A stretch of 64,000 bases of DNA from Proteromonas lacertae (Eukaryota): positions 124,001 to 188,000 of the forward strand of contig NGBS01000585.1 of NCBI GenBank assembly GCA_002245135.1, read 5' to 3'. The position numbers and the translations under genes were made by a program. The notes under the pieces are model-generated. The model worked only from the letters and a program-made list of their open reading frames with translations, ran no database searches and was not told the origin of the DNA. Shown here piece after piece: positions 12,023 to 47,403 of this stretch (its first letter is position 1; every line of letters begins with the position of its first letter).

Positions 12023-14121
12023 TTAAAATAATGTTGTGAAAATACTTGGATGATAAGGTTTGTAGTAATTATAAGCACATACTTCAGAATTTCCAGAATA
12101 GAATATATCTCCAGCTTCTATACGCTTTTCTTTGTTCTTTTTTAATTTAACAAATGTACCTGTCTTCGATTGTAAATCTTGCAAAAGCCATTTACCTTCT
12201 ATATACTCAATTTTACAGTGTCTTAAACTCAACGATGTTTCAGGTATTTGAACCATCGTATCTCCTCCTTTACATCCTATTGTATTCACTCGACTATTCA
12301 AATAATACTTCCATCCTCTCACTGGACCTGTTAATGATTGAATACCAATATAAAAACCATAAGATTGCAGTTGGTAAGCAAATTCTAAATACTCCTCAGA
12401 ACTAATTTCACCTTCTCTTTTTGGTGCATCTGTATCTGGTGGCGGTTCTTCTTCTTTTCTACTTCCTTTTACACTCGTTTGTATTTCATCATCACCTTCT
12501 TCTTTAAATGCATTTTTGTGTTGATCAAGATTTGATTTGGCTTTAAATATTGTATTTATACCTTTCTTTTTCTCTTTTGGTTCTTCTTTCTTTTCCTCTT
12601 TCTTTTCTTCCTTTTTAGATTCACCACCATCACCACCATTCTCTTGTTCAGCTTTTGATCTTCTTATTTGTTCTTCAAGTTCAATCTCTTTATCATCATT
12701 CTCTTCATCTTGTTTTTTCTAATTATTATATATATCAATATACTCTTAAAAGTTTTTGTAATGAACTAGCAGTACTATCTCTAAATTGTTTTAATGGAGG
12801 AATATAATGATTTAATCCTTCAATTGGACCTAAAGCAGAAACCATCTCATCTCTGTTAATTTCTAACATTATACAATCAGTTTTGGTTGTGATTGTATTT
12901 TTATGAGGAATATTTCTAATCAATTGATATTCATTAAAGAATTTATTTTGTGTAAGCGTTGTTTTATCATCCAATTCAACTGTTCCTAATTGAATAAAAT
13001 AACAATTACCACTAATCTTGCCTCTTTCAATTAACACTGTTTTTGGTTTATAATTAATCTGTTTAAATGATAATGCAAGATTCAACATTGCATCTTCAGA
13101 TAAATTACAGAATAATGGGTGTTTATTTAACTGTGCTAATAATAAACGAGTTTTATCTTTCTGTTTCTGTAATATATCAGCTGATTCAGTTGCTATTTCA
13201 AATACCTGGAAAGCTGAATTACCAATTCTAAATACATCACCTTGCTTTAAGGTTACTGGAATATTGAAATATCTTGCCCAAGGTATTGTTTCACCTTGAG
13301 CTGGACATCTTCCAACTAATTGATAAATTGATCTTAAACGACTGTCTTCAACTGCTTTTATATAGAATCTATTACACTTTGCATAGATTGTTGCTTGTGT
13401 TGCAGCTATTTCCATATCATCAATGTTAATATAACAATTCTTACTTCTACCTAAATAATGTTGCATACTTTTAGATAATGTTGTTGCATATGGAGGAAAT
13501 ACAAAACTTTCAGCATTATATTGATATTTACGTCTTGATTCTCGAAGTTTTGTTACTTTTATTGCCATACTGTCCCATTCAGTATCAGGATCAATACTAA
13601 ATCCAACTTCATAAGTGTTTAAGAATATACGATCAGATGGTAATATTGGAATCTATAAATATGAATAATAAAAAGCGATAATATTTATACAATTCTTATT
13701 AAATCCATTCTTGTTGAAAGACTTGGCTTACTAGCTAAATCTTCCCACCAAATTTCACCATCTTCACTGTATATTTTTACTTGTACTTTAGCAGCTCTAT
13801 CATCTTTAATAACTACTTGACATTCATTGGAACAACCAATTAATATTGGTAATCCTTTAGGTTCAATTGTGAAGTCTTTGGGAGGATTATCACCTTGTGT
13901 TATTGTAAATGTTACTTTGTCAATATAAATGTCTTCTTTTGTTGTTTCATATACTGTTAAATCAGGCATTGATCTTCTCAATAATTGTTCTATTATTAAA
14001 TAATATTTTATAATAATTTATGAACTAATACGTGTATGCTCTTCTAATTTAACAGTTGTATGATTATCAGGTTGAATTTCTTCAACATCACCAAACTTTA
14101 TCTTCATTTTCTTCTTCTTTC

Positions 14122-19535: not shown

Positions 19536-22500
19536 TTATACTCTAACTCCTTCTTTATTGTGTTTTTCAGAAACAGATATTCTCCTACAAATTGATTCAT
19601 GTCTTGCTGTTTTTTTGAATATTCCAGTTCTTAATAAACAAAATAAAATCACTAATATCACGATTAATCCACCTGCTACTGATCCAATTGCTATTCCAAC
19701 TATTGCTCCACTATTTACATTACATTCACTTTCATCAATTACACTCCAAACACCTTCATTATTATCAATCATTAAACATTTTCTTCTCTTCATTCCACTT
19801 TTTGCTCCTCCACATTCTATCAACACTTCTTTTCCTCCTTTCTCAGCTGGAGTTCTTGGAAATCCAGAATCAGATTCACAAAATACTGCATCAAATCCTA
19901 TTTCCACTTCTACAGTCTCAATCTCTGTTGATGGAGGATTTCGAATTGTAAAGGTATATTTCGTTTTTTCAACATATTCTAATGGTGATCCATATATTTC
20001 TCCAGATTTTGAATCTAATGATATGCCTTTAGGCAATTCTGGATTTACTGCAATTTCAAGATTTGTTCCAACTGCAACAAATAAATATTCTGATTTTATT
20101 ACTTCTCCAAATTTAAATGTTTTATTTGATACTTTACTGGATGGAACTATCACTGGAATATCAGGAATTGAACATGATAATATAAATGAAAATGAAACTT
20201 GTTTTCCACTTCCACTTATTAAGATTGTGGTATTTACTGCATCAAAACTATTAGATATATAACCACTTATTCTTCCTTTCGAGGAATCAAATTTCAAAGT
20301 TGAGAATGGAAGATTGGGTATGATTGAATAAACTAAATTCTTTCCAGTTATTCTTCCTAATTCTAATCCATCATATTCTTTTCCACCTTCGATTGCTATA
20401 TTATCTACATGTCTAATTATTACTGGTTCTACAGATTCTTCAACATTTATTGTGATTGGATTGGATATTTCACCAGCATCATTATGACATTTGAATGTAT
20501 ATGATTTATTACTTGGTGGTTCTACATTTACTTTTCCACTTATTATTCCACTATTTTCATCAAATTTTAATCCTTCAGGTAATGCTGGTTCAATTGAATA
20601 TAATATAGTTTTTGCAACACATTCATATGGTTGAATATCATTATAACTCACTCCAAATATCATTATCACTTCTTTTTCATATTTTATATTATTCGGTTTG
20701 ATTGGTAATGTCACATTCATTTCAATTGTTATATCAATATAATCAACTTCATTTGAAGCTGTGAATTTACTTCTCATAGAATTCTCTTCAATCACCATTC
20801 CAGAAATTAAACCACTTCTTTTGTCTAAACTCAATCCATTTGGTATTTCATCTACACTATATTCAATATTTTCACCTATCACATAAAATAATTTCAATTC
20901 TTTATATTCTTTACCAGCTTCTAATATCACTGATTCATTACTCCAGATTTTTATTGGATTTTTAGAAGGTAAAACAGTTATGGATATTTCAATTGTTATA
21001 CCTTCATCACTTCCTGAATAAGCATTATTAGCTTTGAAATAAACTGGTTTTGATGATTCTTCAATATATGCTTGACCAGATATTAAACCAGTTTTATTAT
21101 CTATTCTTAAGCCACTTATTTCAGGATTCATTGAATAAAATACATCTTTTCCTGAAACTGTGAATAATCTCACATTTTCATAAAAATCACCTGCTTTGAA
21201 TCTATAAGATGTTTCTTTACTAATTAAAGATGGACTTTCATCACATGTATTTTCGATTTCATTCCACCATTTATCATTATTACAGTATAATGTTCGATTT
21301 CCTGTTATACCTGATGTTTTACATCCAATAGTTATTTCTGTTCCAGTTACAGTTTCTGGTATATCTTCTATTGCTTCACAATATCTTATTGGACATAAAT
21401 GGAAATTTATATCATATAAACTAATTGTGTCACTATTTGATGCTGTTATATTGAATCTAATTGCTGAATACATAATAGTTGTACTGTAATTATTAAACAC
21501 TCTCTTTCTTTCAGGATAAGTAATATCTTTAAAAGAGCCAATTAAAATCCATTTTGAATTGTAATATCCTTCCACTGAAAAATCTTTTGGACCACCATTT
21601 CTAGAATATACATAAATACTAAATTGATTGAAATATGTATGAAAATGATCTTTATATCTCATTATTGCCCAACCAGGGATTGTGTCAGTATACCATTCTG
21701 AATTAGGGTTTTCATCAAATCCATAAGCAACAGGATACATTGCTGATACGGTATTTGTTTCAGTTACTCTTTTAGCATATTTATTAAGAATTAAACAATC
21801 TTCTTTACTTCCAATTATTCTTAATAAAGATGAACTTATTTCAGGGAAATTTTCTTCACCATTGAATTTGTGTAATTCAATCGAAATTTCAACTGGATTT
21901 TCTTCTAACCAAGGAATTGGAAGAATAAACACTTCATCAGTTAAACCATCATATCGATTATTTGCCATTGTATCTGGAGATATTTCACCATTTGGTAAAT
22001 TATTTCGAAAGATTTCTTTTCCATTCACTTTTATTAATATTCCACTTATATAACTCACTTTTAAAAGCAAATCCATTATATTTATCTTCATAATCAAATA
22101 CATCTATCTTTCGAATATAAATCACATTTCCAGATACTTTGTTTAATTCAGATAATTTGGATTTTGACCATGTTAAATGTTCAGCATTTGGATTATCCCA
22201 ACCATTTTCATATTCAATTGAATTTTCCCATTCTGTATTATAATCATAATCCAATGTTGAATGGAAATGTCTTTTCTCTCATATCTTGTTCACTGACTAA
22301 TGTTGTTCTATCAACTGGAATTCCATATACTAATACATCTATAAAACCATCACCATAGCCCAAATATGATAAACTTCCTCTATAGACAGCAGTATATTCA
22401 TGATTTGATAAACAATATTCATATTCATAGATATTATTTCTTTCCCATCCTTCTTCTGATCCTTCTAAATCAATTATTGAAGTTTTATTCTGATTATCCA

Positions 22501-25500
22501 TTTCAGATGTTTTATAAAGAGATATTCCCCAATCTTCTGGATATGTATTTGAACTTCCATTCACATAAATAGAAATTAATGTTTTTGATTGTTTTAAACA
22601 TATTTCATTTATTGATTCATCATAAAATGTTAAATTTAAATACCTTGTTGTTATGCCATTCACATTTGATCCTGTTATTGTATATAATTGTTTTGGTGAT
22701 TCTTTTGTTACTACACCAGTTATTTCACAACTCTTTTCATCAAAGTGTAAAAATGAAGGTAATTCTGGTGATATTTCACAATTTTCAACCATTTTTACTT
22801 TAGGTACAATTCTAACTACTTCATTTAAATAGTATTCTTCTTTACAACTTTTAGGTAAATCTATTATTGGAGATTTTACAATTGTATTTATATCAATCGT
22901 ATTTGCGCTGTAGTGTTTTGCTTCAATTCTATCAGCAAGTTTTCCATCAGTGTAAAATTCAAACAGAAATGTTCCATCTCCTCTTTGAAAATCATTAAAA
23001 TAAAATTTATAATCTCCAGGAATTAGACATAAAACTGGGAAATATAATGGAAGTGATCCTGCTGGAATTGTATAATCTCGAATTGTTTTTTCATTTTGAT
23101 ATTGAAATTCACATATTATCTTCTCTCTCGGATCAATTGTATCTACTACTTTCACAAAATGAGATTTATATTCACCAGAACATCCACTTATTACATTTGT
23201 TATAATTTTTCGACTTACATATTCACTATTTGAATAATAAGCTCGAATTTCTAATTCATAATTATTTAAATATTCGGTTGCTACTATTTTTACACTTCCA
23301 GTATATTTATTATATGTAAAACCACCTGGAATAACTGGTAATTCATAAAAAATAACAGATCCACTTTCAATACTTATCAATAAATGACTTTCATTTCCAA
23401 TAAACAGATTCAATTCTTCTACTATTATTCCTTCATTATCTAAATCTTTTATATGTAATCCTTGAGGTTTTACATCTCCTATCACTTTTATAGATATGGC
23501 TGTGTTTACTGTTGAACCATCAGATAATTTACCATTTATCATATAAGATTTCACATCTTGAACTGTTGTAGCTGTTCCTCGAATTGTGCAACCTGATAAC
23601 TCTAAACCAGGAGGTAAACTTGGCATTGATTCACACTCACTTATTATTTCATCTCCTTCGATAAATGGAATATTGTCAGATATTCGATTATTCACTATAT
23701 ATACTGCATAACTAACTCGATATTCAAAATCTCCTCTTGGAACAAAATATAAAACATCTTTCAATTCTTTAAACTCGGAATCTAACTCATTCTTATAAGA
23801 TAATTTTATTCCACTTCCTCCTACATTCTTCATGTAATTCACTCTTATGAAGTGATATCCTTCACTCAAATATTTTGTTCCTGTTTTGCAACTCCAATCA
23901 TGAATTCCATTGTGATTGATTATCTCAATAAAATCAATAAATAACCAAGATCCTTGAACAGATGTTAAATTGAATGTATAATTTCCTGACGTTTCTATCT
24001 TTATATAACCTTCCCAATTTACTCCAAATTCACTGGCAAAATTGGGAGTTAAACCATCCCAAATTGATTGGATTGGATTATATTCTTCATTTATTTCATC
24101 TTCTAATCGAATTATTTCAGTTGTTACACCTTCACTTGAAGGAGTATAAGGATTTAAACAACTTGTGTCAAATTCATCAGATTTTAGATAATAAGCAACT
24201 ATTCCTTTTATATATTTATCAATTATATCAATATGGATTTTCACTTCATTTGTTGTGGATGTTTCTGTTGAACATTCCACTCTTAATTCTAGATTTATCA
24301 CTTCATTTATTTGTCCTTTCAATATATGGTTTGTAACATCAACTACTATTCGATCATCTCCTGTTTTACATTCACTTGCTACTCCTCTTTCGATCTTAAA
24401 TGGAATTTCAAAATAAGAATTCATTGGCATTGTAAAATATTCACTATCAAATGTTAAATGTGATACAACATTATATTCTACTAATGATTGATAGAACTGA
24501 ACTGGCTCTTCTATTTCTTTACCAGGTGGTGTCCATTTCATCAAAAATTTATATGTAGAACTATTGTTCATTTCATTACATTGAGTAGTAGAAGTTGATG
24601 TAATACACATTTCCTGTTTAAAAGAATAATGACCAACTATTCCGATTTTATGATATCCTGATGTTAATTGAGTTGAAACATATTTATCTGATTCTTTCCA
24701 CACACTACATTCAGTGGATGTGTAATATTTTATGAATTTTCTAACACCATGTTCATAAATTTGGCTGTATTTATTATTATCAATGTAAGAGTCAAATCTA
24801 GTAAAATCAGAATTTAGATGAAAAGAGTATTTACCACTCTTTGGAGCATATAATGCTCCTTCCATTGTATAATTCCAATAGAATACATTATGACTTGATA
24901 AAAATCCATCTAATTTATTATCCCATACTGAATAAGCATCTTCTCCATCTAATCCATCTAAATTGTCTATTGTTGTTTCTTTACTGTTATATATTGTAAG
25001 AATGTCATTTACACTACCACACATAAAACTATTTACATGATCTACTTTTATATTCAATCCAGATCTTATTACTTCATCAGCTTTTGTGATAACTATTGTG
25101 GTTGAAACACTACCAGCTGGATTTTCACCATTTATTGTTATTCTATTATTATTATTAAATATCATTTATATATACGTTATTGGATTTTCAGGAGGTAATA
25201 ATTCATCTATTTCTAATATTCCATCATCAGAGATTGATATTGGATAAGAACCAGATGGATTAAAACTAATTGACCAACTTTTCACTTTCTTGTCACTTTT
25301 ACAGGGAAATGAATCTGTTTGTTTTGCTCCAATTGCTAATTTAACTATTCCACATGTCATACTATTGGGTTTATCCCAAACTATACAAGTAATTTGAAAT
25401 TTATACCTTTCATTTCGATATTAGCTTTCATTACTACATTATCTGGTGTCGTTAATGTAATTGTATAAGTAGATTGATATTCTTCAAGCGGAATACCACT

Positions 25501-26375: not shown

Positions 26376-29300
26376 TTATTCATCTTCAAATACAATAATA
26401 TAATCTTTCTTCTGTCTTACATACTGCAATCTACAAACTGGACATCTATTATCACTATGACTCATCTGAATCCAACAAGACCTACAAAAACCATGCAAAC
26501 AATTCGTATAATACAAAGGCAATTCACTACCACAAACAGGACAATCTCCAACACCTTTTAACAATAACTGAATAATATCTGAATCATCACTGTATCTATT
26601 CACTTTATATTCATAAGTATCAACATCAACATCATCATAAGTGTCATTAATACTTGTCGGATAGAGTTTAGGACGAGATAATGGATCTAATGGTTTTCCT
26701 GTTATTAAATCATGAGTTAATACTTTAGAAATACCACCATTTGGATGAGGTTCAGGTGTTGTACCTGTTGTCATTGAATGGGATCTATTTACTAATAATG
26801 AATTACTATTATTATAGATATTGTCATTATCTACATCAGTGAAATTAGTATTAAATGATAATACAGGAGGTGGTGGTGTTTGTATTTTATCTCTTACTTG
26901 GAAGAATGAAGTGATTTGAGCATTAACTTTATTCTTCTTCTTTGGAGTGTTTGACAGTTCTAATGGTTTTGCTACTTTTCTTTTCTTGCTAGAGACAGTA
27001 AAACTCATTACTGGTTTAACTACTGATTCAGTTTTTATATTTGAAAATGTAAAGTCTTTATTCTCATCCATTTCTTCATTTTCATCTTCATCTATTGAAT
27101 AATGAGTAATTTCTTCAGGATTATCAACTTTTTCATATCGCTTTATTCTTACATTCTTACCAAACACATTCTTTAATGGTTTTACTTGAGATATTACTTT
27201 ATGTGGTTTCTTTAGTATTGATTTAGATGATTGACTATCAAAATCATCAAATTGACTTGATTCTATCCTTTCATTCATCTTAGCAATAATTTCACCTGCA
27301 AAACTATTCATACTGCTATTATTCTTATTATTATTAATTTCATTCTTTACAAAGAAATTCTTGATTGTATCTTTATTATCTTCTTTCTTTTCTATTTTTC
27401 TTGGTTTATAAGTGTTAAACATCAATGTCAATTTCTTTGAACTAGAGGATTTAGAATCATCTTTACTATCTTTATTACTATTACTAAATGAGTTAAAAGA
27501 ATCATTAGAATTTACATCAATTGAAGGATTAGAAAAAATATTAACAGAAGATGGAGATGAATCTGTAGTAGTAAATGATGATTTAGAAGATGTATCTATT
27601 TTCTTATACAAATTGAACAATGATGGAGAAATAATTGGTTTAGCTGAAGATGGAGTTGATGAATTAATATTCGTTTTACCATTTGAAAAAGATTTAGATG
27701 ACTTTATATTGTTTATATTCTTCGAATATCTATTATCTTCTTGATCTTCTTCTTCTTCTTCTTTTTCATATTCTAAATCAACATGAGTCTTACTATTGTT
27801 ATCTTTAATATCTAATCCAATTCTCGGAGGATTAATTCTTAAATCATGAAAGAATTTATTCAATGGTGAAATAGAATCATTTATACTTTCATAATGTCTT
27901 AAATATGGTCTTAACCAAGCAGATAATCGATCGATTTGATCTTGTCGACTAAATCTTTCATCTAACAATATTATACTCCCATAATCATTCTTATGTCTAA
28001 TAACTCGACCAATAGCTTGATTAACAGCTCGAGATGCTTGTTGACAATACCATTGTTGGCCATTTATACGAATTATTCCACTAGGTGGTATATATTTATC
28101 TTGAAATTCTTTCTGTAATAGAACACGTGGATTATAGGCTGGTGGAAATGGTATTCCTGTGATTATAACACATCTTCCATATTCATTACTATAATCCATT
28201 CCTTCACTAGCTTTACCTCTACATATACCCATCATTATACCTTTATGAGTTGAATCTATACTATTTCTATACTGCGCTGATATTAAATTAAACTGATCAC
28301 TACTTCTTGGTTCAATAAATATTGGCTTGACTATCTCAAGCTTGCCATAAATATTTGTGTTTTTCCACACTCTAATACACTCATCCATTACAGAATAAGA
28401 AGGGAAAAATACCAGTATCCCACCAGTCACATTTTTACTAATAGTAATAATTGATTCACCTAATGCTTTTATATAGAATTCATTACTTCTCGTTTGATAA
28501 GAAGAATTGAGTGTAATATTATTAGCAGATTTCTTTATAACACTTAAAAATATTTGTCTCTGATGGATAATATGAGGATTCTCTAATTGAACAGGAAATG
28601 GTAATTGCATTGAATTAACAAACGAAGATATAGGTGACAATGTACCACTAGTTAATATAATATTATAAATTCCCAACTTTATTAATTCATTCATTGCTAT
28701 ACCTGGACTGAAACACCAATAACTTATTATCACATCTTCAGTTACACTATTCTTTGAAGATCTTAGAAATGATAAAGATGTCTGTTGTTGTTGTTGTTTT
28801 ATTATTTCTTTATGAATATGCAATTTATAATATTTACTTACATCTTTTATATTCTGATTTTCTCTAAATACTATTTTTACAAACTCTGCAAATGTTCCTA
28901 TAGCTGATGTTTTAGTGTTTATTAAATTAACAGTTTCTTCAGTCTTTTGTAGAGTGTCGATTATCACTTGAACTGTTTGTTGGTTTATACCGATATTATT
29001 GAATATTTTAAATATATATTCACCTGACTATTTACAATAATAATAAATATATATATATATACTAATGACTCTTTATTATCATGCAATTTTATATCATTAA
29101 TACTTTGTTCAAACTTCAACATAATGGTTTTCATTATTTCTAAAGTCTTTTCACTCACTAAATCATAATCCATCGATTTATAAGTATCTTTCTCTTCGTC
29201 ATATTTCATTTTACATCTATCTAAATCATCTACAATTGAAGCAATAGTGGATAATTTAAAATCATAAGAAGCTGCATCACAACAGACAGATTCAAGATTA

Positions 29301-30049
29301 TGAGCTTCATCAAATATAATAATTGAATTAGTCCATTCTATTTTCAATGATTTTCTTATGGTAGGATCTACTAGATAATTGTATGGTAATAATATTATAT
29401 CACATGATGTTTGAATATCATCTGAACGACTGTAATGGTAAGGACAAGCTCCTTTAGATTTACAGAATTGAACAATGTCTTCTATATCCATTATTCGATT
29501 ATCTGCATCGTGAAGTGTTTTGGATGGTTCGTAATAGGGACATAGATTCTTTTTAACCATTGCTCTACATCTTATATCTAAGATTCTGTTGTTTTTGTTA
29601 CTATCTTCTATTAATTGCTCATTTATGCACATTTGAGTTCGTGATCCTATAACACAAACTTTTGGTTTGTACGTTGTAGATTTAAGTTCTTTCACTACTT
29701 GTGTTAGTTGTGAATGTGTTCTGGAACAATAGATGATTGTTGGTTTTATTTGATTTTGACCCATAAATGAATTTGTTTCATTGTTACTTACTTTCTGTCC
29801 TGAAAACTTCTCTAATTTCTTAACATATTCATTCCTCCAAGCTATCGTAGCACACAACAGACATAAAGTCTATAAATATATCATTTTAGAACATTATAAT
29901 AATACTTTACCCGTCCCTGTTGGACTTTCTAAAATTGCATTCTGTTTATTATTCAGCGATTTTATAACACTTTTCATATAATCTATTTGACAGTCATACG
30001 GTTCGAAAGGAAAATCGATCATAATATGATCTATAGTGAATTTTGGCAT
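26376..30049 (-). CDS. RTEL1: RTEL1-like Fe-S DNA helicase (XPD/FANCJ family) with C-terminal RING finger
   Basis: [74 protein letters not shown]-terminal [20 protein letters not shown]-like QITSFF. Confidence 0.88.
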
Positions 30050-30073: not shown

Positions 30074-31385
30074 ATGAAAAGAGGTGTTCTTGTTGCTATA
30101 GAAGGATTGAATACACAATATATTCATGATATAGCTCAGACTGTGACAAATAAAATAAAAGAATCGCTGTCAAAGATAAAGGTTATAGATCATTCAAGTA
30201 TTTATATTGATAATTTCATTAGGTATTAAAACAAGTATATCACCATTAATACAGCAATATACAACTGCTAATTCATCAAAAGTACCATTAGTTATTCTGA
30301 ATTCTGCTAATCGTTGGGAATACTAGTATACTTTATGAGAATTTTGTATTTTTATTAGTGATGAGGTTATGAGTAATTTAGAGAAAGGAAATAATGTAAT
30401 AATAAGTAATTATACTTCAGAATCAGTGAAATTATCTCAACAATTCAATTATGATATAAATTGGATTAAAATATTGGATAACAATCTACTATTACCAGAC
30501 TACATTATCTCAATTAATTCAAAAACTCTTCAATTAAACTCATATTTAGATTCTTTAATACCTTCATTAAACAGTATAAAAATAGTGTCAGATGATTCAG
30601 AACAAATCATTCATCAGTGTATTAAACAAATGCAATCGATTCTAAGTACATTCAATTCATCTACGCCAATCAAAACAATCAATTTTAAACGAATGAAAGA
30701 ATTTGATTATTCTACATTTTTAACAACTCACCATCATCGAGAAAGTGAAAAAAGAGGGATGTTTATCGTATTTGAAGGTTGCGACAGAAGTGGAAAAAGC
30801 ACCCAAGTTGATTTATTAATACAATATTTCAAAAAATCAAACTTAAGGTTTGAACATTTTATATTTCCAAATAGAAATACAATTATAGGGAAATGTATTA
30901 ATAAATTTTTATCAAAAGAATTATCATTGAATGCACATTCTATTCATATGTTATTTGCAGCTAATCGTTGGGAAATGAAATCTCAATTAGAAGATGCATT
31001 ATACAGTGGTAGTAATATAATTGTTGATAGATATGCATTTAGTGGAATAGTTTATTCAAGTGCAAAGCGTATTCCAGATATGTCGCTTGATTGGTGTATT
31101 TATCCTGATTGTGGTATACCTTCCCCTGATTTGATTATATTTATGGATATCAAGCCAAGTGTTTGTTCCAATAGAGCTGAATTTGGTAATGAAGTGTATG
31201 AGACTAATGCATTTCAACAAGAAGTGTATCAACAGTATAAATTGTTGTTTAAAGGATATGATAATACACTATATGTAGATGCTTCACAATCAATTGATTC
31301 AATTCATAATGTGATTAAACATGCGATAATGAGTAAGATTAATCAAGTTGAAAAGAAAGTAATACTTCCAATAACTCCCAAATAA
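30074..31385 (+). CDS. DTYMK: Thymidylate (dTMP) kinase with tandem duplicated domain (N-terminal copy degenerate)
   Basis: C-terminal domain: [39 protein letters not shown]-terminal domain, via two short introns: [32 protein letters not shown]. Confidence 0.88.
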
Positions 31386-35693: not shown

Positions 35694-38600
35694 ATGAGGA
35701 GCTGGGTTGTTGTTGATATTATATTTTTAATCTGTTGCGTTACTTTAAGTAATGAATACAAAATTGGCTTTATAAAATCTAAATATGATGATACTAATCT
35801 TATAGATGTCACAAAAAAGCATATAGAAACTGCTAATAAGATCGATCAACTAGGTACAAAAATAAATTTTCAAGAATATACTGATGATCAGGCAGAATCG
35901 TCAATTAAGTCCAACAATCCTGATGAACCAACAGAATTTGTATGTAATTGTGCAGCTGATAAAATGGATTATTATTTGAGTATCGTTAACAATACTAGCA
36001 AAATGATTTGGTGTTTATCACCCTATGCTCCCTATAGATGTAATCGTTCATTTCTACCAGGTGTATCACCCAATAATGCTGTTCTTTATAGTATAATATG
36101 TATTTACAATGAAATTAATAGCTTCTTACATAATGGCTTCAAAATATGATGCAATAGCATTTATAGGTGGAAATAATTTAGTTGATGAATATTACATACC
36201 AAGATTTGAAGCACTAGGCAATAATATGGGACAACATGTGTTTAAAGCATTAGAAATGAGTAAAGTAACTGAAAGTACAATAGATGAGTATGTTACTGAG
36301 ATATTAACATATGAAAGTTGTATTATTTATACAACAGTTAAAGATGATGCATTACTTACTCATCTAATAAGTAAAATAGGTGGTGAAGATCATACTAAAT
36401 ATACATTGATGTTTTTATTAGGAGGAATGTATGAAGATAATATTCTCCACTATAAAGCAGATATTCAAGATTATTTTATAGAAAAAATATATAAAATAGA
36501 TGATGATAATGATAATTTTAAATTGTACAAACAATATAGAAGCAATGATTTAACAAGCCATACAATATCTGAAGAAATGTTAATGTATAATAATAATCAT
36601 CACCATTTATATTTTTGTAAATAGAATGTCTTATATATCTGCATTAACTCATATTAGAACATTTGTAAACTCAGATGAAACGGTAAACTTGGTAAGTCAA
36701 GCATACAATCGAGAAATTCAATATGCAGGAGGTGAAATAGCATTTTTACCAGCTCAATCTACAGCTGTAACAACTTATATCTATAAATTCAAAGATAATA
36801 CAGGTAGTCAAGATTTAATTTATACACTACCTAATTCACAATCCATTGAACCAAATTATATTCATGGAAAAGTATTAACAGAGACATGCAATTTCATTAA
36901 GAACTCTGCAACAGGTGTTAATAGAAATACACCAGTGGTATTGTTTCAAATTGCTGATGTTAATACTGCAGATAAAAAAGACTCCTCTATTTATAATAGG
37001 ATATTTTTGGATTTTTTGATAGAGAGAGTAAATGATGCTAATGGTGTTTTAGGCTCTTTAATAAGTGTTTTATATATCAATTATTATAATAATTCACAAA
37101 TTGTTGAAGAGATTATTGATAATTATGAGATTTATCATCCCTCTGCTATAATTATTGATGTATTACCACAAATTAGAGATTATATTGTTAAAAGTATATA
37201 TTAAATAATATAATAATAATTCATATATAACAATGAATAGATACTGAATTTTTAGGTGATAATCTATTATATTTCTATATGGGATATAATGAAGGTGGAT
37301 ATTGTAATAAACATATAGTCTCAGCTTCTAATGTGAATAATGATATTTTGTTACCATTAAGATCATTTGCTAGAGATAAAGGTTATAAATCATTAGTATT
37401 ATTAGGATCTGATGGAAAGTATAATATTATTCTATTATTATTAACTAGTTATGGAGAATCTACCTATGCCAAAATGTATGAGAATATGAAAGCTCATGGA
37501 ATAAGTTCTGATGATATTTTAGGTAAGAAATTAACAAATAATACAAAACAATACTGTGATGATATAATTGATTCAATAAACAGATTCTTTCCAGATGGAG
37601 GAGCTATTTATAGTGTTGCAGAAAAGAATTATACTGAATGTATTCTCAAATCAATACATAATCATCCAAATGTTTCTCTTTCAAAATATAGTTTTATATC
37701 AGCAACAATTGATGAATTACAGATGAAGAATATCGGATGGGAATATGTAGAAGGAATTTATTATTTGACTTATTATTGGAATGGATCACATCATGAAACA
37801 ATTGAATCTTTTAGAAAGTATTACAGTAGTTTAATGAATGATGAATATCCTACTGTTAATTCAATTGCTTTGTATTATAATATCATTTATACATGGATAT
37901 ATGCAATGACTTTATCAGCATCAACAGAAGCATCAAATTATTTATCATATTTATTCCATCAAACATTAGATAGTGTAGTAATAAAACCATATGAAATTTA
38001 TACAAATGGAATGGGTCAATGTGTTTTAAGTATTTTAAAGATTGAAGATAAACAATCGATATATGATTCTAATAGTATGTTTGCTCAAGAAGCAAAAGTA
38101 TTCAATAATGGCAGTTATTACTGTAATTTGAATAATGATCCACCCATTAGTCAATCTATATTCTATACAGTTGGTGTGTTGTTTAATGTTCATGATCCTG
38201 AAGGTTTAACAAGATTAGATGAAATAGATTTAATCATTAATCTAATCAATCAAGATGGTGGTATAAATGGAAGATTACTAGTCACTAATTTTACGAATTA
38301 TGATGGAAATCCAGATCATATAGTAGAAGCGGCAAAACAATTGGTGTTTGACAGTAATCTATTATGTTTTATTGGAGGTAGAACAAGAGAAGAAAGAGAT
38401 GCACTTGATGATTGGCTAATTGAAGTTGATAAATTAATGTTTTCTATATATCCATCTACTGCTGAAGTGAATTATAGAAATATTATACAAGTTGCTGCAA
38501 TTCCAAATACATTAATTAATGATCAGCTGTTTATATCTCTTGATAGATGTGATGTTATTACTATTTTAGCAATGAATCAGTCAATTCAATATGAATATCT

Positions 38601-41600
38601 ACAATATGTAAATAATGTGACAAGTTACTATGGTTTGAAAATGAATGATATTATTACATTTACTAATTTGACATTAGGAATTGATGATTTTTATCCAATT
38701 CTATCAGCAGTGAATGATTCATTCGCTACTTCATATGATAAAAGAAAATGTGTAATTTCATTGGTTGGAGATAATACTGATAATATGATTCAAGCATTTG
38801 CTGAGTATTACACAACTGATGATTGGAGGTTTTTAATATTTGACTTTTCTATTACTTATTATTTGAATTCTGTTAATGGTAGTAATTATGACAATCATTT
38901 TATTGGTACTTCATATTATTCATTGAATTCTTTCACTGCTAATATTGTTATGAGAAATAATATTGATAATTATAAAGGTAATTCAATGTTGTTATTAAAT
39001 GAATATTCTGTTTCTGATTATAACTCAATGTTATTAGTTGCATTCGCAATGGATGGAATGACTGATGTTTCTGCAACTACAATTAAAACCAATCTCTATT
39101 ATGCATCTATAGAAGCTCCAACTGGAACTTTGCGTTTAGGATTGTCCAATTATTGTGTAGGTATTTGTACAATGTGTGAAATGCATGGTGCTATTGGTGC
39201 TGTTGAATTTCATACAAATCCAACTCCAATCATTCCAAGACCATTTTATTATATTGTATATTATATATTTGTTTATTTTATATCTAATAGAATCGTGATA
39301 AGAATTATTATACATCGGATAATTCATTGAATGGAGAGAGTAAAATGGTTGAATTAGACACGATTGGTATTCTATTATTGATGGATTATAATGAAAAAAA
39401 AACATTTATAAGATATGCATTAGCTCAAACAATTGCAGATATATCAAACTATCAAGCAAATATCAAAAATAAAGAAGTGGTAGTTGAATTAGATCGTTGT
39501 CCAACAACCAAAGATAGAGCTTCTGGCTTATTATTCGATTATCATAATCGTGGATTTAGAATTGTGGCTGGAGGATGTGATTCAACAACAAGAGATTTAA
39601 TGAGAAAAGCAATTGAAACATTAGATATGATTCTATTATATTGGGGATATAATACTGGTCATGATTGTTCAAAGAATATATTTTATTTAGCAACATCACC
39701 TTCACAAGAGATTATACCTACTACATTACATTATTTCCAAACAGTTAATAGAGATTCTATTGTTTTATACTCAACAGATCCAAAATATGAAATAAGAATT
39801 GGTATATTGAAATCTATGTTTAGTGATTTTGAATATAAGATTAAATATGAAGCAAATGTTGATTATACTGATTTTGAAAAGAATTTGTATTATCATTTAC
39901 TTCATTTCGATATTGCTTGTCCAGATGGTTGTCCAGTTTTAGTTTTATTAGATGGTGATAATGCTGAGACATTTTTAACAGTTTTTTATCAATACTTTAT
40001 TAAAAGATATTCAACAAGTGAAGAAATTTTAGAACATTTTCCAGTGTATATGTATGATAATTCACATACAACTTATTCATTAGGGAATATTACTAAAGGT
40101 GTAAATGTGTACAGTCCATATTTAAGAACTTACTCTGAAGAAGAGATATTATTCCATACCAATTATGAGACAATTGCAAATTATTCAATTCCTAATTATT
40201 TCGATGCTGTGGAATCTGAATCATTAATGTGGTTGTTGGATGTACTGAAAGATGCAACATCATTAGATACAGCTGATATTTTGAAACAAGCTTATATCAC
40301 AACTAAAAAGACAGCAATTGGAACAATTGTAATGGATATAAGTAATTCAATTTCTCAGAGTATTTTTTATGGAGTTGTTGATGAAAAAGGTGATGTTATT
40401 TATAAAGCAACAGTTAGTAATAATTGGGCAGGTGAACCTTGGAGAGATTCACTGAATAGATTTGTTGATAACAGTTGCGATTGGAAGAATGGTATTGGTG
40501 AAAAATATACAAGAAATGTGTTAAGATATGCTGTTGTTATTTCATCTATACCAGAATATAAATCAGAAGGTGTTGTATTCTATCAAGCATTATACGCTGC
40601 TGGTTCTAAGATCAATAAAGAAGGAGGCATTAACGGAATGATTTTAAATGCACTAGTTTTTTGTGATGGTAATGATAATAAGACTGCATATAGTCGTTTC
40701 ATTGACTTTTATAATAGAAATGTGACATTTTTCTATGGTGGTTGGACAAAAGAAGTAAGATATGGTTTAAATGAAGCAGCTATTGCTTCAAATTCAATGG
40801 TATTTAGTCCAGTAAATCTAGTAGGAGAAGAATGTTACACAAATTTGTATTTTACTAGTCTTACCTATCAGTCATTCTTCTTCTTTATTCCTTGGATATA
40901 TCAAATAACTAAAGGTAGTATGATATTATTATATAGTGATTCTGAGTTATCCAGAGGATTTGCTCAATCATTTATTAGAGAATTTGCTGTATATAAAGTG
41001 TCATTGCTGTTAGAGTATCAATTACCATTAGATAATGAAGATACTGATGGTATTGCTGAATTAATAAAAAGAGAATCACCTGATTATGCATTAGTATTGT
41101 CTTTCTTGGAAGGACCATCCAAGACTGCATTATTCAGATCATTCGAAAAGTACAATATGAGACCACCTACATATTATATTGTTGGTGTGTTTATAACTGA
41201 ACAAGATGTATTAGAAATTGGTAGTATAACGAATAATCATTATTATCTATCACCTTATGTTGAAACTGAAGAAACAAAACAATCACAAGAAGACATGATG
41301 AATCAAATCAAATCAATATTTAGTTATTATGAAGGTTCTACTCCTGAATTAGTTCATGGTTTTACAGCTTTAGAAATTGGTGCAAGTAATGCTATAAGAA
41401 TTGGCAGTACTGACCCAGCTAAATTAAGAGAAGCATTATATACATATGATGTTGAAACACCAATCGGAAAGGTCGTATTTAGTAGTAATAACATGATTAA
41501 TAATGTTGTATCATTTCAACAAGCAAAATGGGATAATAATGAATTTTCTAAAGTTTCTGTTTATGATTCAACTATACCAATTATTCCACAACAATATGGT

Positions 41601-44600
41601 TCAGTTTTATTTGATGATCCAATTATTCAGTGTGATATGAAGAATGACAAATTGATAGAACATAAAACAATAAAAATAGGAATATTAGTTAGTTTGACAG
41701 GAAGTTTAGAATCAACACACACTCCACTCTGTTTTGGTATTCAAACTGCTGTTCATGAATTATTTAGTATTGGAACAGTAAATGATCATTATGTACTTAT
41801 ACAATTTGGTGATTATGGATCTAATAATAATAAAATAAGAGAAACTATAGCTAAGTTGTATGATGTTGAAAAAGTAGGAGCAATAATTGGATGTACAGAT
41901 ATAGAATGTAAAAGAATAGCTCAAGAAGAAGCAAAAAATAGAAATAAGTTGTTCTATTATGTGTCATTGTCTGTAGGTCAAGAATGTGATTATAATACAT
42001 TTTATATTGGATCTGTTCCAAACCAATACATTTCTAGAGGATTTGAGTTTTTAATTACACAAAATTATCCAAAATTTGCATATTTGATAGCTGATAATGA
42101 TGAAGAGACAATGAAATTGGTTGATATAATAAAAGATGCATCAAGTGGTTTGTTTTCTTTAGAAGAACCATTTATTATATCAAATGAGAATTATTTATCA
42201 GTTGATATTATTAGTGATATATATGACAAATTAAAAAATGGTGGAATTATTCTAACAGCTGTAAAAATAAGTCAATTAAAGAAATTTTTAGAGTATTATT
42301 CGAATATGAAGGTAGACCATGAGAAATATGCTGTTTATGATATATTATGTAATGTTGATGAATTTGATTTACTTCAACCTTCTTTAAGAAGTAATGTTTA
42401 CATAAGTGGAAGGTATTTTTACGATATTGATAATGATTATAATAAAAACTTCATTAGAACTACAAAGCATTATGTTGCTTATGCTGAACCAACTGCTATT
42501 GCAGAAGCTGCTTATTTAGCAGTTCATTTCTGGGCAAGAGCAGCAAATGTTTCTGGAAGTTTTGAAACTGATGATGTAAGAAAAGCAAGTTATGGTTTAG
42601 AAATAGAATCAGGAAGTGGTAAAGTGACAATGACAGATGATAATCATATTACAGCTGCTTTTTTTGTAGCAAGATTTAGTGAAACTGGAGAAACATATTC
42701 CACAGTTTATTCAAAATTTGATGGAGAAACTGCTTTAGCCTTGGAGTTGGAATATTGAATCAACATTTGCTAAGAAATGTACATTCTCTGATGGACCAAG
42801 TGGTAATTTTACTGATGTGAATGTAAGACGTGTCTTGTTAGTTGCATCTTTAACTGGATCTTTGTCATCCAATTCAATTGGTTTGGTAGATGCTTATCAA
42901 ATTGCTATAAATGAAATTAATGTTGAAGGAGTTGCTGGTTATACATTAAAAGCTGATATTTTTGATTTACAGTCTGATATTGATGAATGTAAAAGTTATA
43001 TTAAAGATTATATTGAAAATGATAAGAAGAATCCTCTAGCTATATTCGTATCAGCTCCTGATGCTATGTTTGAATACTATTATTAAATTATGCTGATGAA
43101 ATAAACAGTGATATGATTGTGTTTAACTATTGAAACACAAGCTATAGGTTATTGTCATGATTCAGTATTTGTTGCAGTTGAACATAGTACATTATATGAA
43201 GAAGTAATCAGTTTGATTAGAAATAGATTCTATGATAAGATATTACTATTAGCTGAAAGTACAAATAATATTGCTGGGTTTGTTTATAAAGAATTTAATA
43301 CATACTTTTCTGATGTTATATGGAACAGTAACATGAAATGGACTGCTAGTGGTATTTCTACAGAATTAGACTTATTAAAATCATATATATCTCAAATAAA
43401 AAATGGTCAAGGTTGTATTTGTGTGTTTGCATCAGTAGAACAGTATAAGTTATTAGTTGATACGATGGAATTGCTAGGAATGGACTATAAATCAGACTAT
43501 CATATTATAGTGATGGATAAAGGTAATTTAATAAGAGATAGTGGATATAGAGATTTTGAAATAGTATCATCTTATATGCAAGAAGAAGGATCACCTGAGA
43601 ATGTTGCATTTAAAACAAAGATGTATGAAAGAATATCTACTAGTAATCATATTTCAGATATTGCATCAAGAACTTATACTTCAATTATATTATGGTCACA
43701 GGCAATAAACTCAGCTAATAGTTTATCTAAATTGAGAATAAAACAGCAATTGAGAAAAGAGCAATTGCAATCACCAGAAGGTTTGGTTTATTTTGGTTCT
43801 AATCAATATCTAGCTAGAATAATGAGAATTTATTATGTTAATGATGATGATACAACTACATTAGTTCATAACACAAAAACAGCTCATTTACCTGAAGCAT
43901 ATGAGATAAAAATTGACAATGTAAAGAAATGTGATTTTGATAATATAGATATAGGTGAAGAAGGAAATCTACAGCCATATGCAATAGCATTTGTTTATTC
44001 ATTTACAGGTGCAAGTAAGAGATGGGAGATTCCTTTATTTGAGACTGTTATGACAACTCTAAATTTGATCAATAATGGAGGTGGTATATTAGGTAATTAT
44101 TTGACTTCTGAAGCATTTAATGCAGAATCTTCAGTAGAAAAATATGTAGAAATAATGACCGAATTAGTAAAAGGCAATAAATTTACATATATATTTGGTG
44201 GAAGTGATGCTGAGACATTAAAAGCTATTGGTCCAATATTTGATAATACAGAAAAGATATTGTTCTATACTGGAAATGCTTATGGTGATAAAAGTTATTC
44301 AAATGTAATAGTTTTAACTCCATCATTAGCATCACTTGCAGATGCAGTGTCAAAGAGAGTTTTAGAATTGTCAAATAGTGCTTATATAGTAGCATCAGTT
44401 GATTCTTTTTCAAAGCAATTTGATAAACTGATTTTATCAAGAATGACAAATCTTTTGATTTCTCAAAATGGTCATTCTGATTATTATATAGATAATCCAA
44501 CAAAGACTGCTAATGAGATAAAATTAGCATTGAAAGGAAGTGGTTATATTGTTAATGCAATATATAATGTTAATGAGAATTACATATTTTATGATGCAAT

Positions 44601-47403
44601 CTGTAAAGCAGGAATAGTTGGACCTGATTATATTATAATAAATGTTTTCTTAAATCAAAATCTCTACAAAAGATTAGATCCGAAATGTATAGAGGGACAT
44701 ATATTTATTAATTCCTATTTTGAAGCATTAGGTTCATATGAAACAAATATGTTAGGAAGTGTCCCATATCTATCTCCATTATATAATGCTGATTTTGGTA
44801 TTAGAGTTGGTGATATTGATCCAACAGCTGCTACAGAAAGTGCAGCAATTGCCCAATTAATATGGAAAGGAATTGCAGTGAAAGTGAATTCATTGGAATA
44901 TAATAAAGTGAAAGAGATGTATCATTATTCAATTGATACACCATCATATTCTGTAGAAGTTGGAACAAATAATTATTTAAAAAGAAGAATATTTTCTGGT
45001 GCAATTCAAAATGGAAAATTGATTATTGACTGGGGACCTGACAATTATTTCACTTCCACAGTTTATAATAAATGGGATGGAAAGAATCTCAAACAAGTTG
45101 ATGATTGGTCTGATAAAAATAAAGGAGAAAACTATGAACAACCCACTATAATACTTGCATTTTTGCATGAAAAAGATATAGGTGGAAAAACTGAACAAAT
45201 GTCAGCTTTAATCGAAGATTTAGCAGTGGAAGAAATAAATGATCAAGGTGGAATATTGAATTACCAATTGTTTGCTAGACATTATTGGGTGACAATAAAT
45301 GATGCATATAAAACAGTTAGAACAATTCAAGAAGAAGGAAATACAACAGCAATATTTGGTTGTTCAACATCAGAATGTAGAAATGAAGTAGAAAGATATC
45401 TTTCCATTTCTACCAAAGACATTCTATTTTTCTATTTAGGAAGAGATGATGGATATTTATGTTCAAAGAGAACTGTTACAGCTGGTGTATCAATTAATCA
45501 AAAAGTAGAACCATTAGTCAAATACTTAACAAATGTTGATTTGAAATATATTTATCTAATTGGACCAGCTAGAAATTCAACTTATATTCAATTTGAAGTG
45601 TTGAAAAAATCTTCAATAACTGAAGGTTATGAAATAGTTGGTGAAGCTGCTTTCAGTCCATTTAATACCGAATTTGTTAGTGCTTGTCTTGAAGATTTAA
45701 AATCAAAAGTTGAATTATACAAAAGAGTTGGTATTTTCAATCTATTCATAGCTAAAGAGAATGCATTATTCTTAGAAGAGTATGTAAAAGATACAAGTTT
45801 ACAAACTACAACATCATTATTCATATTTAATTATGATCCAGCTGACATATCTTCATCAATCAAACAATCAATAGATGGATCATTTATAATTGCTGGTTAT
45901 TCAGATGCAGTTAAAAATACAGCATCAGGAGCATTTAAATTTACATCAACAGCAGAATATCAAGATTCGATTGATTTATCTGAATCATTAGAAGTGGCAT
46001 ATAGTACAATCTATTTGTGGAAAGCAGCTGTTGAATATTCAACTGATTATAGTAGTGACGAGTGGCCTTCAACTGAATATGTTGGTTTATCAATCAAATA
46101 TATATCATATGATGCACCATCAGGAACTTTACAGATTAGAAATAACAACAGAGCTTATAGAACAATGTATTTATTTAGATTAAGTGATCAAGAAACAATG
46201 CAAATATATCCAAAACAAGGAGTTCAATATATGGTTGAAAGTGAATTGACTTATATATCCAGTAGTGATTGTGTATTTGGTAAGAATAAAGAATTATACG
46301 AATACAATCCTGCATTGCAGTATGTAACATATATATTATGTGGTATAAATGGTTTTCTTTCACTAGTTACATTGTTCTTCGTTTATATGTATAGAAATAC
46401 AAAGATTATTAAAAGTGCAAGTCCGTTGTTTTTATATTACACAGTTATCTCAATAATGTTAATTGCTGCAATTGGTATTGTATTTACATTAGCTCCAACT
46501 AAGAAATCAATATGTCTAGCTAGAATATGGTGTTTGGCAATATCAGTAGATTTCTTATTCAGTATTATGTTTTCTAAAGCATGGAGAATTCATAAATTGT
46601 TCAATAATAAAGAAATGAAAAGAGTTAAAGTATCAAATTTGATGTTATTGAGAATGATAGCTGTGATATTAGGAATACAAGTTGGTTATTTATTAGTATG
46701 GACGTTTGTTAAACCTTCAGAACCAACACAGACATTTTCAACAGGTTATTCAGATTATCTAAGTGATGTTTATTTACAGGAATGTACTGAGAATTATGTA
46801 TTTATAGTAATTCAATTAGTGGCTGTGTTTATATTATTTGGATGGGGTACTAAGTTAGCATGGGGTGTGAGAAATGCATCAGCTGAGTTTAATGAATCAA
46901 TGACTCTAATGTCAACTATTGGTGTAATTATTGTAATGGGAATTATCATTGTTCCACTGAATTTCTTGATGGCTGGAGAACCAGATACATTGTTATTGAT
47001 AAGAAGTTTAGGTATTGAATTAGGTGTTTTTGCTGTTTTAATTCTACAGTTTGGATCAAAAATTATGTATTTGTATGTATTTGAAATAGGAGGAACATCT
47101 ACATTTAGTGGTTCATTAGGAAGTAGTAAACAGAGTAGTGGAAGTAAAGGTGGTGGAGCAAGTAAAGTAGCTAGAAGGAATGTAGCTCGTGGTAGATTTA
47201 CATTGAAACCACATATTTTAATAAGAGAACCAATTGAAATGGCAACTATTTCTTGTCCTGATATGTTTTATATACCACCTGAAGCATTTCCTGGAAGTAG
47301 TAGTAGTGTAAGAAGAGCTAATAGTACAAGTAAGCATAGTGTGAGTGTTAGGAAAATGTCAGATAGAGAAGGGTTAAAATCTGCTTATTCAGCTAGAGGA
47401 TAA
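35694..47403 (+). CDS. Giant class C-like GPCR: signal peptide + 9 tandem PBP1 (UrtA/AmiC-like) domains + GABA-B-like 7TM (paralog B); frame broken at about 42738 and 43072-43131
   Basis: Introns at about 36091-36121, 36585-36624, 37194-37240, 37419-37448 and 39256-39290. Domain starts about every 1.15 kb. The 7TM at about 46320-47070 has KIIKSASPLF, C.ARIW, FSKAWRIHKLF and VRN...FNES, followed by a Ser/Gly-rich tail. Confidence 0.88.

What the first reader, a model, noticed from the sequence alone, without database searches (positions are those of the whole stretch)
35694..47403. Giant class C-like GPCR carrying nine tandem bacterial-type urea/amide-binding (UrtA/AmiC-like) flytrap domains
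Seen: a roughly 3,800-aa spliced product with a signal peptide and nine units of about 380 aa, starting near 35760, 36930, 38165, 39360, 40525, 41670, 42830, 43980 and 45150. Each unit opens with a hydrophobic strand plus an 'IN..GG..G' type motif, and most are joined by a short Cys-containing linker (ETCNF, NSCDW, IQCDM, KKCTF, KKCDF). A 7TM follows, with SASPLF, KAWRIHKLF and FNES motifs. Established: characterised class C GPCRs (mGluR, CaSR, GABA-B) carry one flytrap domain, and motifs such as GGWT...R, LF.P..YEG and G..PNQ are typical of bacterial UrtA/AmiC/LivK-type periplasmic binding proteins. Inference: a polyvalent chemosensor built by fusing and amplifying a bacterial-type solute-binding domain on a eukaryotic GPCR, possibly sensing several small amides or amino acids. 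I know of no characterised receptor with this architecture. There is no cysteine-rich domain before TM1, as in GABA-B.
Basis: partly seen in the sequence, partly recalled or inferred. Interest (0 to 1): 0.92.

Follow-up and report, generated by a model that had tools for sequence, protein, structure and literature searches.

The report
Nine-flytrap GABA-B-like receptor of protists
A single-celled eukaryote encodes a GABA-B-type membrane receptor carrying nine copies of a bacterial urea-binding module in a row, where studied receptors of this class carry one; all nine copies have lost the urea-binding residues, so the chain likely works as a long stiff antenna for other signals, and this copy's sequence has three frame breaks that are likely assembly errors.

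Summary
The architecture is real. The gene (35694-47403, +) encodes a hydrophobic leader, nine flytrap modules closest to urea-binding UrtA, and a class C 7TM closest to GABA-B2, with no cysteine-rich domain. An unbroken 3,886-aa homologue (P0001) and an open nine-module paralogue in this window (7TM beyond the edge) share the order. Three corrections. (1) After five introns the frame still breaks three times within 400 bp (about 42735-43130): likely a local assembly error, possibly a young pseudogene. (2) The nine modules keep 0-2 of 9 UrtA urea-pocket residues, so urea sensing is not supported here. An unnamed nine-module relative (P0005) keeps 7-9 of 9 in six modules. (3) The 'Cys linker' is the C-terminal tail of cyanobacterial-type UrtA, predicted to be disulfide-pinned. 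Modules group by position across homologues, so the array is old and fixed. AlphaFold predicts rigid packing of modules 5-6 and of module 9 on the 7TM. The host is likely a Blastocystis-like stramenopile; a relative exists in Capsaspora. Eight literature searches found no multi-flytrap class C receptor. Verdict: new variant of a known kind; ligand and G-protein coupling untested.

The parts
35694..47403 (+). Whole gene: ATG to TAA, six exons, 3,843 aa when the three breaks are read as X
   Evidence: 36% identical to P0001 in a global alignment
35694..35753 (+). Predicted signal peptide
   Evidence: hydrophobic residues 1-19; P0001 and the paralogue also start with a hydrophobic leader; no signal-peptide predictor was run
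36091..36121 (+). Intron 1 (31 nt, phase 1), position shared with the paralogue
36585..36624 (+). Intron 2 (40 nt)
37194..37240 (+). Intron 3 (47 nt)
37419..37448 (+). Intron 4 (30 nt, in frame, no stop; inferred from the GTAT..TAG consensus and gap-free alignment to P0001)
39256..39290 (+). Intron 5 (35 nt)
35760..36904 (+). Flytrap unit 1, most divergent (17% to P0001 unit 1); Cys pair kept; 0 of 9 pocket residues
   Evidence: no Pfam PBP hit
36932..38139 (+). Flytrap unit 2; Cys pair kept; 2 of 9 pocket residues
38164..39332 (+). Flytrap unit 3; both Cys lost; 0 of 9 pocket residues
39360..40508 (+). Flytrap unit 4; Cys pair kept; 2 of 9
40509..41651 (+). Flytrap unit 5; keeps the pocket Trp (GGWT); Cys pair kept; 1 of 9
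41658..42804 (+). Flytrap unit 6, best UrtA match (Pfam E 8.8e-38); 1 of 9; first frame break lies in its tail
42735..42738 (+). Frame break 1 (stop follows at 42756-42758)
42814..43962 (+). Flytrap unit 7; 1 of 9; contains breaks 2 and 3
43070..43131 (+). Frame breaks 2 and 3, a compensating pair around about 18 codons in another frame; stops lie in the main frame between them
43966..45129 (+). Flytrap unit 8; both Cys lost; 2 of 9
45130..46281 (+). Flytrap unit 9, next to the membrane, best conserved (46% to P0001 unit 9); 2 of 9
46306..47076 (+). Class C 7TM, closest solved relative GABA-B2 (E 1.4e-16)
47077..47403 (+). Ser/Gly-rich cytoplasmic tail with an ARGRFT motif shared with P0001 and P0002, and the stop codon
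3..10443 (-). Paralogue: five introns, 3,419 aa open to the window edge, nine units in the same order, 28.5% identical; its 7TM would lie beyond the window and was not seen

Best explanation
This is a class C (GABA-B2-like) seven-helix receptor gene whose outside part is a chain of nine UrtA-derived flytrap modules that have lost the urea-binding residues and likely form a stiff antenna in which only some modules would bind new ligands, signalling, by inference, through module 9 to a G protein. Shown: module order, 7TM class, lack of a cysteine-rich domain, loss of the pocket residues, position-specific descent of each module. Predicted: each module's C-terminal tail is pinned by a disulfide to its own first lobe and runs as a hairpin into the first strand of the next module, fixing neighbours; module 9 sits in a fixed pose on the 7TM that differs from GABA-B. 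Inferred: binding or contact at a distal module shifts the chain and module 9, which moves the 7TM. Inferred history: a cyanobacterial-type UrtA was acquired, fused to a class C 7TM and amplified, first as a urea sensor (the P0005 type), then fixed and repurposed in this lineage. The three frame breaks are likely (about 65%) a local assembly fault.
For: Domains. One chain: P0001 is an unbroken 3,886-aa frame with 9 Peripla_BP_5 stretches plus 7tm_3. Pocket: 0-2 of 9 in the nine units, 9 of 9 in all 10 bacterial UrtA rows; none of 120 units of the divergent family keeps more than 4. Pocket columns are no better conserved than the rest of the unit in units 3, 6, 7 and 8, whereas they are in bacterial UrtA (0.97 against 0.52-0.58) and in P0005 (0.81 against 0.44). 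Each of the nine units groups with same-position units of homologues (SH 0.97-1.0); units within the gene are only 9-17% identical, against 17-46% to the same unit of P0001, highest next to the membrane. Cys pair: of 134 unit rows with letters at both columns (of 163), 127 have both, 5 neither, 2 one. AlphaFold: units 5+6 pLDDT 92.4, pTM 0.91; unit 9+7TM pLDDT 90.6, pTM 0.81, top match GABA-B. Origin: a P0005 unit is 54-57% identical to cyanobacterial UrtA; 38 of the 40 loci with both Cys, among 80, are cyanobacterial. Breaks: three within 395 of 11,530 nt (p 0.003 if uniform); no other stop, low third-position GC on both sides, no extra divergence.
Against: No ligand, expression or coupling data. 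No genome is held, so G proteins in this organism were not checked. The homologue set mixes orthologues and paralogues, so variable pockets may mean diversified ligands, not lost binding. Units 5, 2 and 9 lean towards pocket conservation (p 0.04, 0.07, 0.10, uncorrected, nine tests). The rigid pose rests on 30-32-sequence alignments, and the overall fit to GABA-B is poor (TM 0.42, rmsd 26 A). The UrtA tree could not be rooted; eukaryotic units sit beside, not inside, the cyanobacterial group. TM7 has GSKI where GABA-B2 has VPKL. P0005 units do not pair by position with this gene, so a shared nine-module ancestor is not shown. A recent pseudogene is not excluded.
Confidence: 0.45

Rival explanations
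1. Polyvalent chemosensor: most or all nine modules still bind small molecules, each with a new specificity.
For: The fold is intact and closest to ligand-bound UrtA and AmiC. Position-specific pocket signatures exist, for example W..DE in unit 5 and RD in unit 9. P0005 shows that the family can carry many intact pockets. Pocket variation among paralogues is what ligand diversification would give.
Against: Pocket columns are at or below the unit average in units 3, 6, 7 and 8, and unit 7 pockets are more variable than average. No route is shown by which a distal module signals across eight others.
Confidence: 0.22
2. Adhesion or mechanosensing receptor: the chain is a spacer that reaches out to a surface, a microbe or mucus and binds no small ligand.
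For: Conservation falls from unit 9 (46%) to unit 1 (17%). Predicted rigid packing. 23 N-glycosylation sequons in the ectodomain. Pockets degenerate.
Against: No adhesion domain was detected. The residual signature in unit 5 suggests at least one site. No binding partner is known.
Confidence: 0.18
3. This copy is a recent pseudogene, or makes only a secreted 2,293-aa protein of six modules that stops before the 7TM. This concerns this copy and is independent of the family's mechanism.
For: As assembled, the spliced frame stops at aa 2294, at the end of unit 6. No consensus intron bridges breaks 2 and 3. Other long frames in the window are unbroken, 855-2,726 aa, so the assembly is not generally error-prone. 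An open paralogue could cover the function.
Against: The breaks cluster (p 0.003). About 6% of single changes would give a stop, and none is present in 11.1 kb; codon pattern and divergence match on both sides of the breaks.
Confidence: 0.3
4. The 7TM signals without its own G protein, as a partner subunit of a paralogue or through another effector.
For: Several family members have lost the TM3 KxWR motif (P0013, P0016, P0024), which hints at division of labour. TM7 deviates from GABA-B2. Canonical GPCR-G-alpha coupling outside amorpheans is debated (PMC3971589 passage).
Against: This copy keeps the GABA-B2-like TM3/ICL2 stretch and the FNES motif; that GABA-B2 is the coupling subunit is recalled. 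Stramenopiles have most pathway components.
Confidence: 0.15

Closest known systems
GABA-B receptor (subunit B2)
   Same: 7tm_3 domain; best sequence match among solved structures (E 1.4e-16) and best fold match; flytrap joined to TM1 without a cysteine-rich domain; KxWR motif and TM3/ECL2 Cys pair aligned.
   Different: Nine flytraps, not one; modules are UrtA-type, not ANF-type (ANF_receptor hit in 1 of 9 units); different predicted flytrap-7TM pose (TM 0.42, rmsd 26 A); no GABA-B coiled-coil family hit; dimer not shown.
Bacterial UrtA urea-binding protein, cyanobacterial type (8HIC, 7S6E; TIGR03407) and AmiC
   Same: Best sequence, profile and fold match of the modules; the QEC Cys and C-terminal CDW tail are shared.
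   Different: 14-24% identity; scores far below the TIGR03407 cut-off (117 against 493 bits at best); pocket residues lost; tandem and fused to a eukaryotic 7TM.
Protist and fungal class C GPCRs with ANF, Bmp, OpuAC or SBP_bac_1 ectodomains (Dictyostelium Grl, chytrids, gut fungi)
   Same: Bacterial solute-binding domains recruited onto 7tm_3 (passages of PMC3251606, PMC5168858, PMC3971589, PMC10445921).
   Different: The passages I read describe N-termini up to about 1,600-1,667 aa and mention no UrtA-type or tandem array; here the ectodomain is about 3,470 aa.
Capsaspora owczarzaki CAOG_05347 (P0034), a database entry named hypothetical protein
   Same: Several Peripla_BP_5 stretches plus 7tm_3.
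   Different: About 3-4 interrupted units. I found no paper naming it (the one eLife supplement file held had no hit).
Trypanosome receptor adenylate cyclases
   Same: Two tandem flytraps on a eukaryotic receptor, ligand unknown (PMC6027212 passages).
   Different: One TM helix and a cyclase domain, not a 7TM; two modules, not nine.

Membership tests
Class C GPCR | 7tm_3 domain with seven helices | tested here: met
   Pfam 140 bits against a cut-off of 33.5; seven helices in the model
Class C GPCR | N-terminal type I flytrap domain in the same chain | tested here: met
   units 7-9 share an open frame with the 7TM; all nine do in P0001
Class C GPCR | TM3 basic motif, TM6 acidic residue, TM3-ECL2 Cys pair (motif roles recalled) | tested here: met
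   KAWR, FNES and both Cys align with GABA-B2
Class C GPCR | TM7 xPKxY motif (recalled) | tested here: not met
   GSKIMY; Pro replaced, as in P0001 and P0002
Class C GPCR | Obligate dimer | not testable with these tools
   needs biochemistry
Class C GPCR | G-protein coupling | not testable with these tools
   no genome held; no assay
mGluR/CaSR/T1R subgroup | NCD3G cysteine-rich domain before TM1 | tested here: not met
   no NCD3G hit; one Cys between unit 9 and TM1
GABA-B subgroup | Single ANF-type flytrap | tested here: not met
   nine UrtA-type units
UrtA (TIGR03407) | Score above the curated cut-off | tested here: not met
   best 116.9 against 492.75 bits
UrtA (TIGR03407) | Urea pocket W120, S122, Y141, Q144, E146, Y190, F192, N246, S274 | tested here: not met
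   0-2 of 9 per unit; P0005 units 1-3 and 5-7 keep 7-9
UrtA, cyanobacterial type | QEC Cys plus C-terminal CDW tail (signature defined here) | tested here: met
   both Cys aligned in 6 of 9 units, probably also unit 9; both lost in units 3 and 8
Peripla_BP_5 (PF13433) | Score above the gathering cut-off | tested here: met
   pieces of 8 of 9 units pass; unit 1 does not
Intact expressed gene | One open spliced frame and an mRNA | tested here: inconclusive

The most novel reading that the evidence does not exclude
An undescribed protist family of class C GPCRs arose by capture of a cyanobacterial-type urea-binding protein whose disulfide-pinned tail let it polymerise into a rigid chain of up to nine flytraps. 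The P0005/P0022 type, with intact pockets, would be the first urea-sensing GPCRs, with several sites per chain; the gut-protist type seen here retuned individual modules to new host- or microbe-derived ligands and relays distal binding along the chain to the 7TM.
Probability: 0.3. Interest if true: 0.88.

Novelty: new variant of a known kind. Interest (0 to 1): 0.72.

Why it matters
Class C activation models assume one flytrap per subunit. A family with up to nine, fixed in order over long evolutionary time, poses a testable question: can a distal flytrap drive a 7TM through a chain of others, or do most serve as a spacer? The family supplies both ends of the experiment: P0005 and P0022 have intact urea pockets and a predictable ligand, while this gene has none. 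It also documents a separate recruitment of a bacterial binding protein to a GPCR with an identifiable donor type. If the host is Blastocystis-like, it points to surface receptors of a gut protist; one recent genome paper on the genus has no occurrence of 'GPCR' or 'receptor' in its main text.

Tried and rejected
No whole genome is held, so G proteins, arrestins and family size were not searched. Sequencing runs: none was listed, which is no evidence on expression or on the breaks. Metagenome scan for close relatives: 42 pattern matches, 0 confirmed; an alignment query had no conserved stretch to search with. Homodimer prediction for unit 9: no answer, score 0.00, neither support nor evidence against; the 7TM dimer was never folded. 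VIA-align searches were never run. ESM Atlas: nearest clusters were single-flytrap 7tm_3/ANF proteins, no multi-unit cluster among the ten rows shown; a second look with P0022 did not complete. Rooting the UrtA tree with four distant PBPs failed: very long branches, outgroup not monophyletic. The 7TM tree did not settle one fusion against several. Lobe 1 is more conserved than lobe 2 in 7 of 7 units tested, but also in bacterial UrtA (0.58 against 0.52), so I give it little weight. Introns as the cause of the breaks: rejected for breaks 2-3, unlikely for break 1 (GTTT donor, 29% GC against 11-16% in the four accepted introns listed, removes conserved residues). Recent tandem duplication or concerted evolution: rejected (units 9-17% identical). 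Chimeric assembly of a bacterial gene with a GPCR: rejected (introns inside units, collinear homologues). Earlier scan findings: none in three look-ups. Supplements: 12 files of PMC12129017 and the one held file of PMC12716839 had no hit; that paper's supplementary file 12 on glutamate-receptor domains was not visible and may list the Capsaspora protein.
Full report
Setting. The window is eukaryotic, 24-30% GC, with 29-47-nt GTAT..TAG introns. A neighbouring enoyl-reductase exon has Blastocystis entries (58% and 60%) among its best named matches, with oomycetes close behind (53-57%). The host is therefore a stramenopile, likely Blastocystis-like; the margin is small and this is one gene. No genome is held.

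Gene model. From ATG 35694, five introns (36091-36121, 36585-36624, 37194-37240, 37419-37448, 39256-39290) give an open frame to aa 2293, which then stops. Comparison with P0001, P0002, P0003, P0004 and the paralogue shows that coding sequence continues in another frame at about 42735-42738, and again across a compensating pair of breaks at about 43070-43131. Read with X at the breaks, the product is 3,843 aa and 36% identical to P0001 end to end. An enumeration of GT/GC..AG options found no consensus-type intron that bridges them. Three breaks within 395 of 11,530 nt has p 0.003 under uniform placement. There is no other stop, although 6% of single changes would make one; third-position GC is 0.14-0.15 on both sides; and the gene is no more diverged than its homologues. 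I put a local assembly fault at about 65% and a young pseudogene or truncated product at about 30%.

Domains. Pieces of units 2-9 pass the Peripla_BP_5 cut-off and unit 1 does not; a family HMM finds all nine, unit 1 at 20 bits. The best NCBIfam match is UrtA, far below its cut-off. The best solved relatives of unit 6 by sequence and of units 5+6 by fold are UrtA, then AmiC; no solved chain matched both units (query TM at most 0.44). The 7TM hits 7tm_3 (E 1.4e-40) and is closest to GABA-B2. There is no cysteine-rich domain.

Family. A search limited to 2,500-5,000-aa proteins returned 2 of 2,971 candidates: P0001 (3,886 aa, unbroken, hydrophobic leader, nine units, 7TM) and P0002. A full HMMER scan gave 3,834 hits, of which 150 were listed. 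Among the proteins I carried forward, 112 besides this gene had a near-complete 7TM, and 19 of these carry two or more UrtA-type units. Most begin in mid-unit, so their true counts are unknown; P0001 and P0005 show nine plus a 7TM, and P0004 shows nine but ends before it. Of 22 clusters looked up, 21 are unnamed Logan records and one is Capsaspora CAOG_05347. The paralogue in this window is open for 3,419 aa with nine units and shares intron 1.

Descent of the units. In a FastTree tree of 122 of the 163 unit rows, each unit of this gene groups with same-numbered units of homologues (SH 0.97-1.0). I numbered fragments from the 7TM end or by analogy, and some units of P0015, P0035 and P0127 did not follow their number. 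Units within the gene are 9-17% identical; identity to the same unit of P0001 rises from 17% (unit 1) to 46% (unit 9). The array is old and fixed. P0005 units do not pair by position with it, so its nine may be a separate amplification.

Pocket. PMC10392092 (passages) names nine residues around urea, four of which hydrogen-bond it. The nine units here keep 0, 2, 0, 2, 1, 1, 1, 2 and 2 of nine, and S122 in two units is the only one of the four retained. None of 120 units of the divergent family keeps more than four. P0005 keeps 7, 8, 9, 5, 9, 9, 9, 3 and 1 (the first unit is cut short), and P0022 one full set. Among same-position homologues, pocket columns are at or below the unit average in units 3, 6, 7 and 8, and above it, but not after correction for nine tests, in units 5, 2 and 9. 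The set mixes paralogues, so this favours but does not prove loss of binding.

The 'linker'. Cyanobacterial UrtA such as P0226 ends in a CDW tail and has a QEC Cys. In the eukaryotic units these are the two best-conserved columns (92% and 89% of 103 units) and they are lost together (two independent events). A disulfide is predicted, not seen. A P0005 unit is 54-57% identical to cyanobacterial UrtA. With the tail removed, eukaryotic units form one group (SH-aLRT 88) beside the cyanobacterial group, but the tree could not be rooted. 'Cyanobacterial-type donor' rests on the shared tail and on identity.

Models. Units 5+6: pLDDT 92.4, pTM 0.91; the tail strand is followed by a long strand that is also the first strand of the next unit. 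Unit 9 plus 7TM: pLDDT 90.6, pTM 0.81, seven helices, an ECL2 hairpin and a stalk strand; GABA-B structures rank first but with TM 0.42 and rmsd 26 A, which I read as both domains matching in a different pose.

Mechanism. Shown: architecture, pocket loss, positional descent. Predicted: disulfide-pinned rigid joints and a fixed unit 9-7TM contact. Inferred: a long antenna in which a subset of modules binds new ligands or surfaces and module 9 transmits. Untested: ligand, dimer, G protein, expression.

Prior knowledge. Diverse bacterial-type binding domains on protist and fungal class C receptors are known (passages of PMC3251606, PMC5168858, PMC3971589, PMC10445921, PMC12716839). Trypanosome cyclases carry two flytraps (PMC6027212 passages), and Entamoeba has a GPI-anchored single flytrap (PMC12965686 passages). 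I also read passages of PMC12129017 and bioRxiv 10.1101/2024.02.22.581678. Eight searches surfaced no class C receptor with tandem or UrtA-type flytraps; none of the five listed papers holds '7tm_3'. The library lacks most subscription papers, and the relevant eLife supplement was not visible. The roles of the TM3, TM6 and TM7 motifs and of GABA-B2 as the coupling subunit are recalled.

Verdict. A real, apparently undescribed architecture within a known receptor class: new variant of a known kind, interest 0.72.

Noticed in passing
window 3-10443, minus strand: Open paralogue with nine units in the same order, 28.5% identical; it runs off the window before its 7TM.
   Followed up: yes
protein P0005 (unnamed Logan record): 3,745-aa class C receptor with nine UrtA units, six of which keep 7-9 of 9 urea-pocket residues; the best candidate for a urea-sensing GPCR.
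   Followed up: partly
proteins P0257 (Polarella glacialis) and P0230: Two UrtA units (first intact, second degenerate), then Cys-rich repeats, a hydrophobic region that is not 7tm_3 and a weak TIR-like hit: the same module on another receptor type.
   Followed up: partly
proteins P0202 and P0279 (JGI): Two UrtA units fused to a glutaminase domain.
   Followed up: no
proteins P0013, P0016, P0024: Family members whose 7TM lacks the TM3 KxWR motif, possibly non-coupling subunits.
   Followed up: no
window 19536-25165, minus strand: Large predicted surface protein with PA14 and He_PIG Ig-like domains and a C-terminal hydrophobic helix.
   Followed up: no
window 26376-29869, minus strand: RTEL1-like helicase with a C-terminal RING finger.
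   Followed up: no
window 12023-13652, minus strand: Adjacent exons with FHA, cyclic-nucleotide-binding and FHA domains, probably one signalling protein.
   Followed up: no
window 30339-31385, plus strand: Thymidylate kinase domain preceded by about 140 residues without a Pfam match in the same frame.
   Followed up: no
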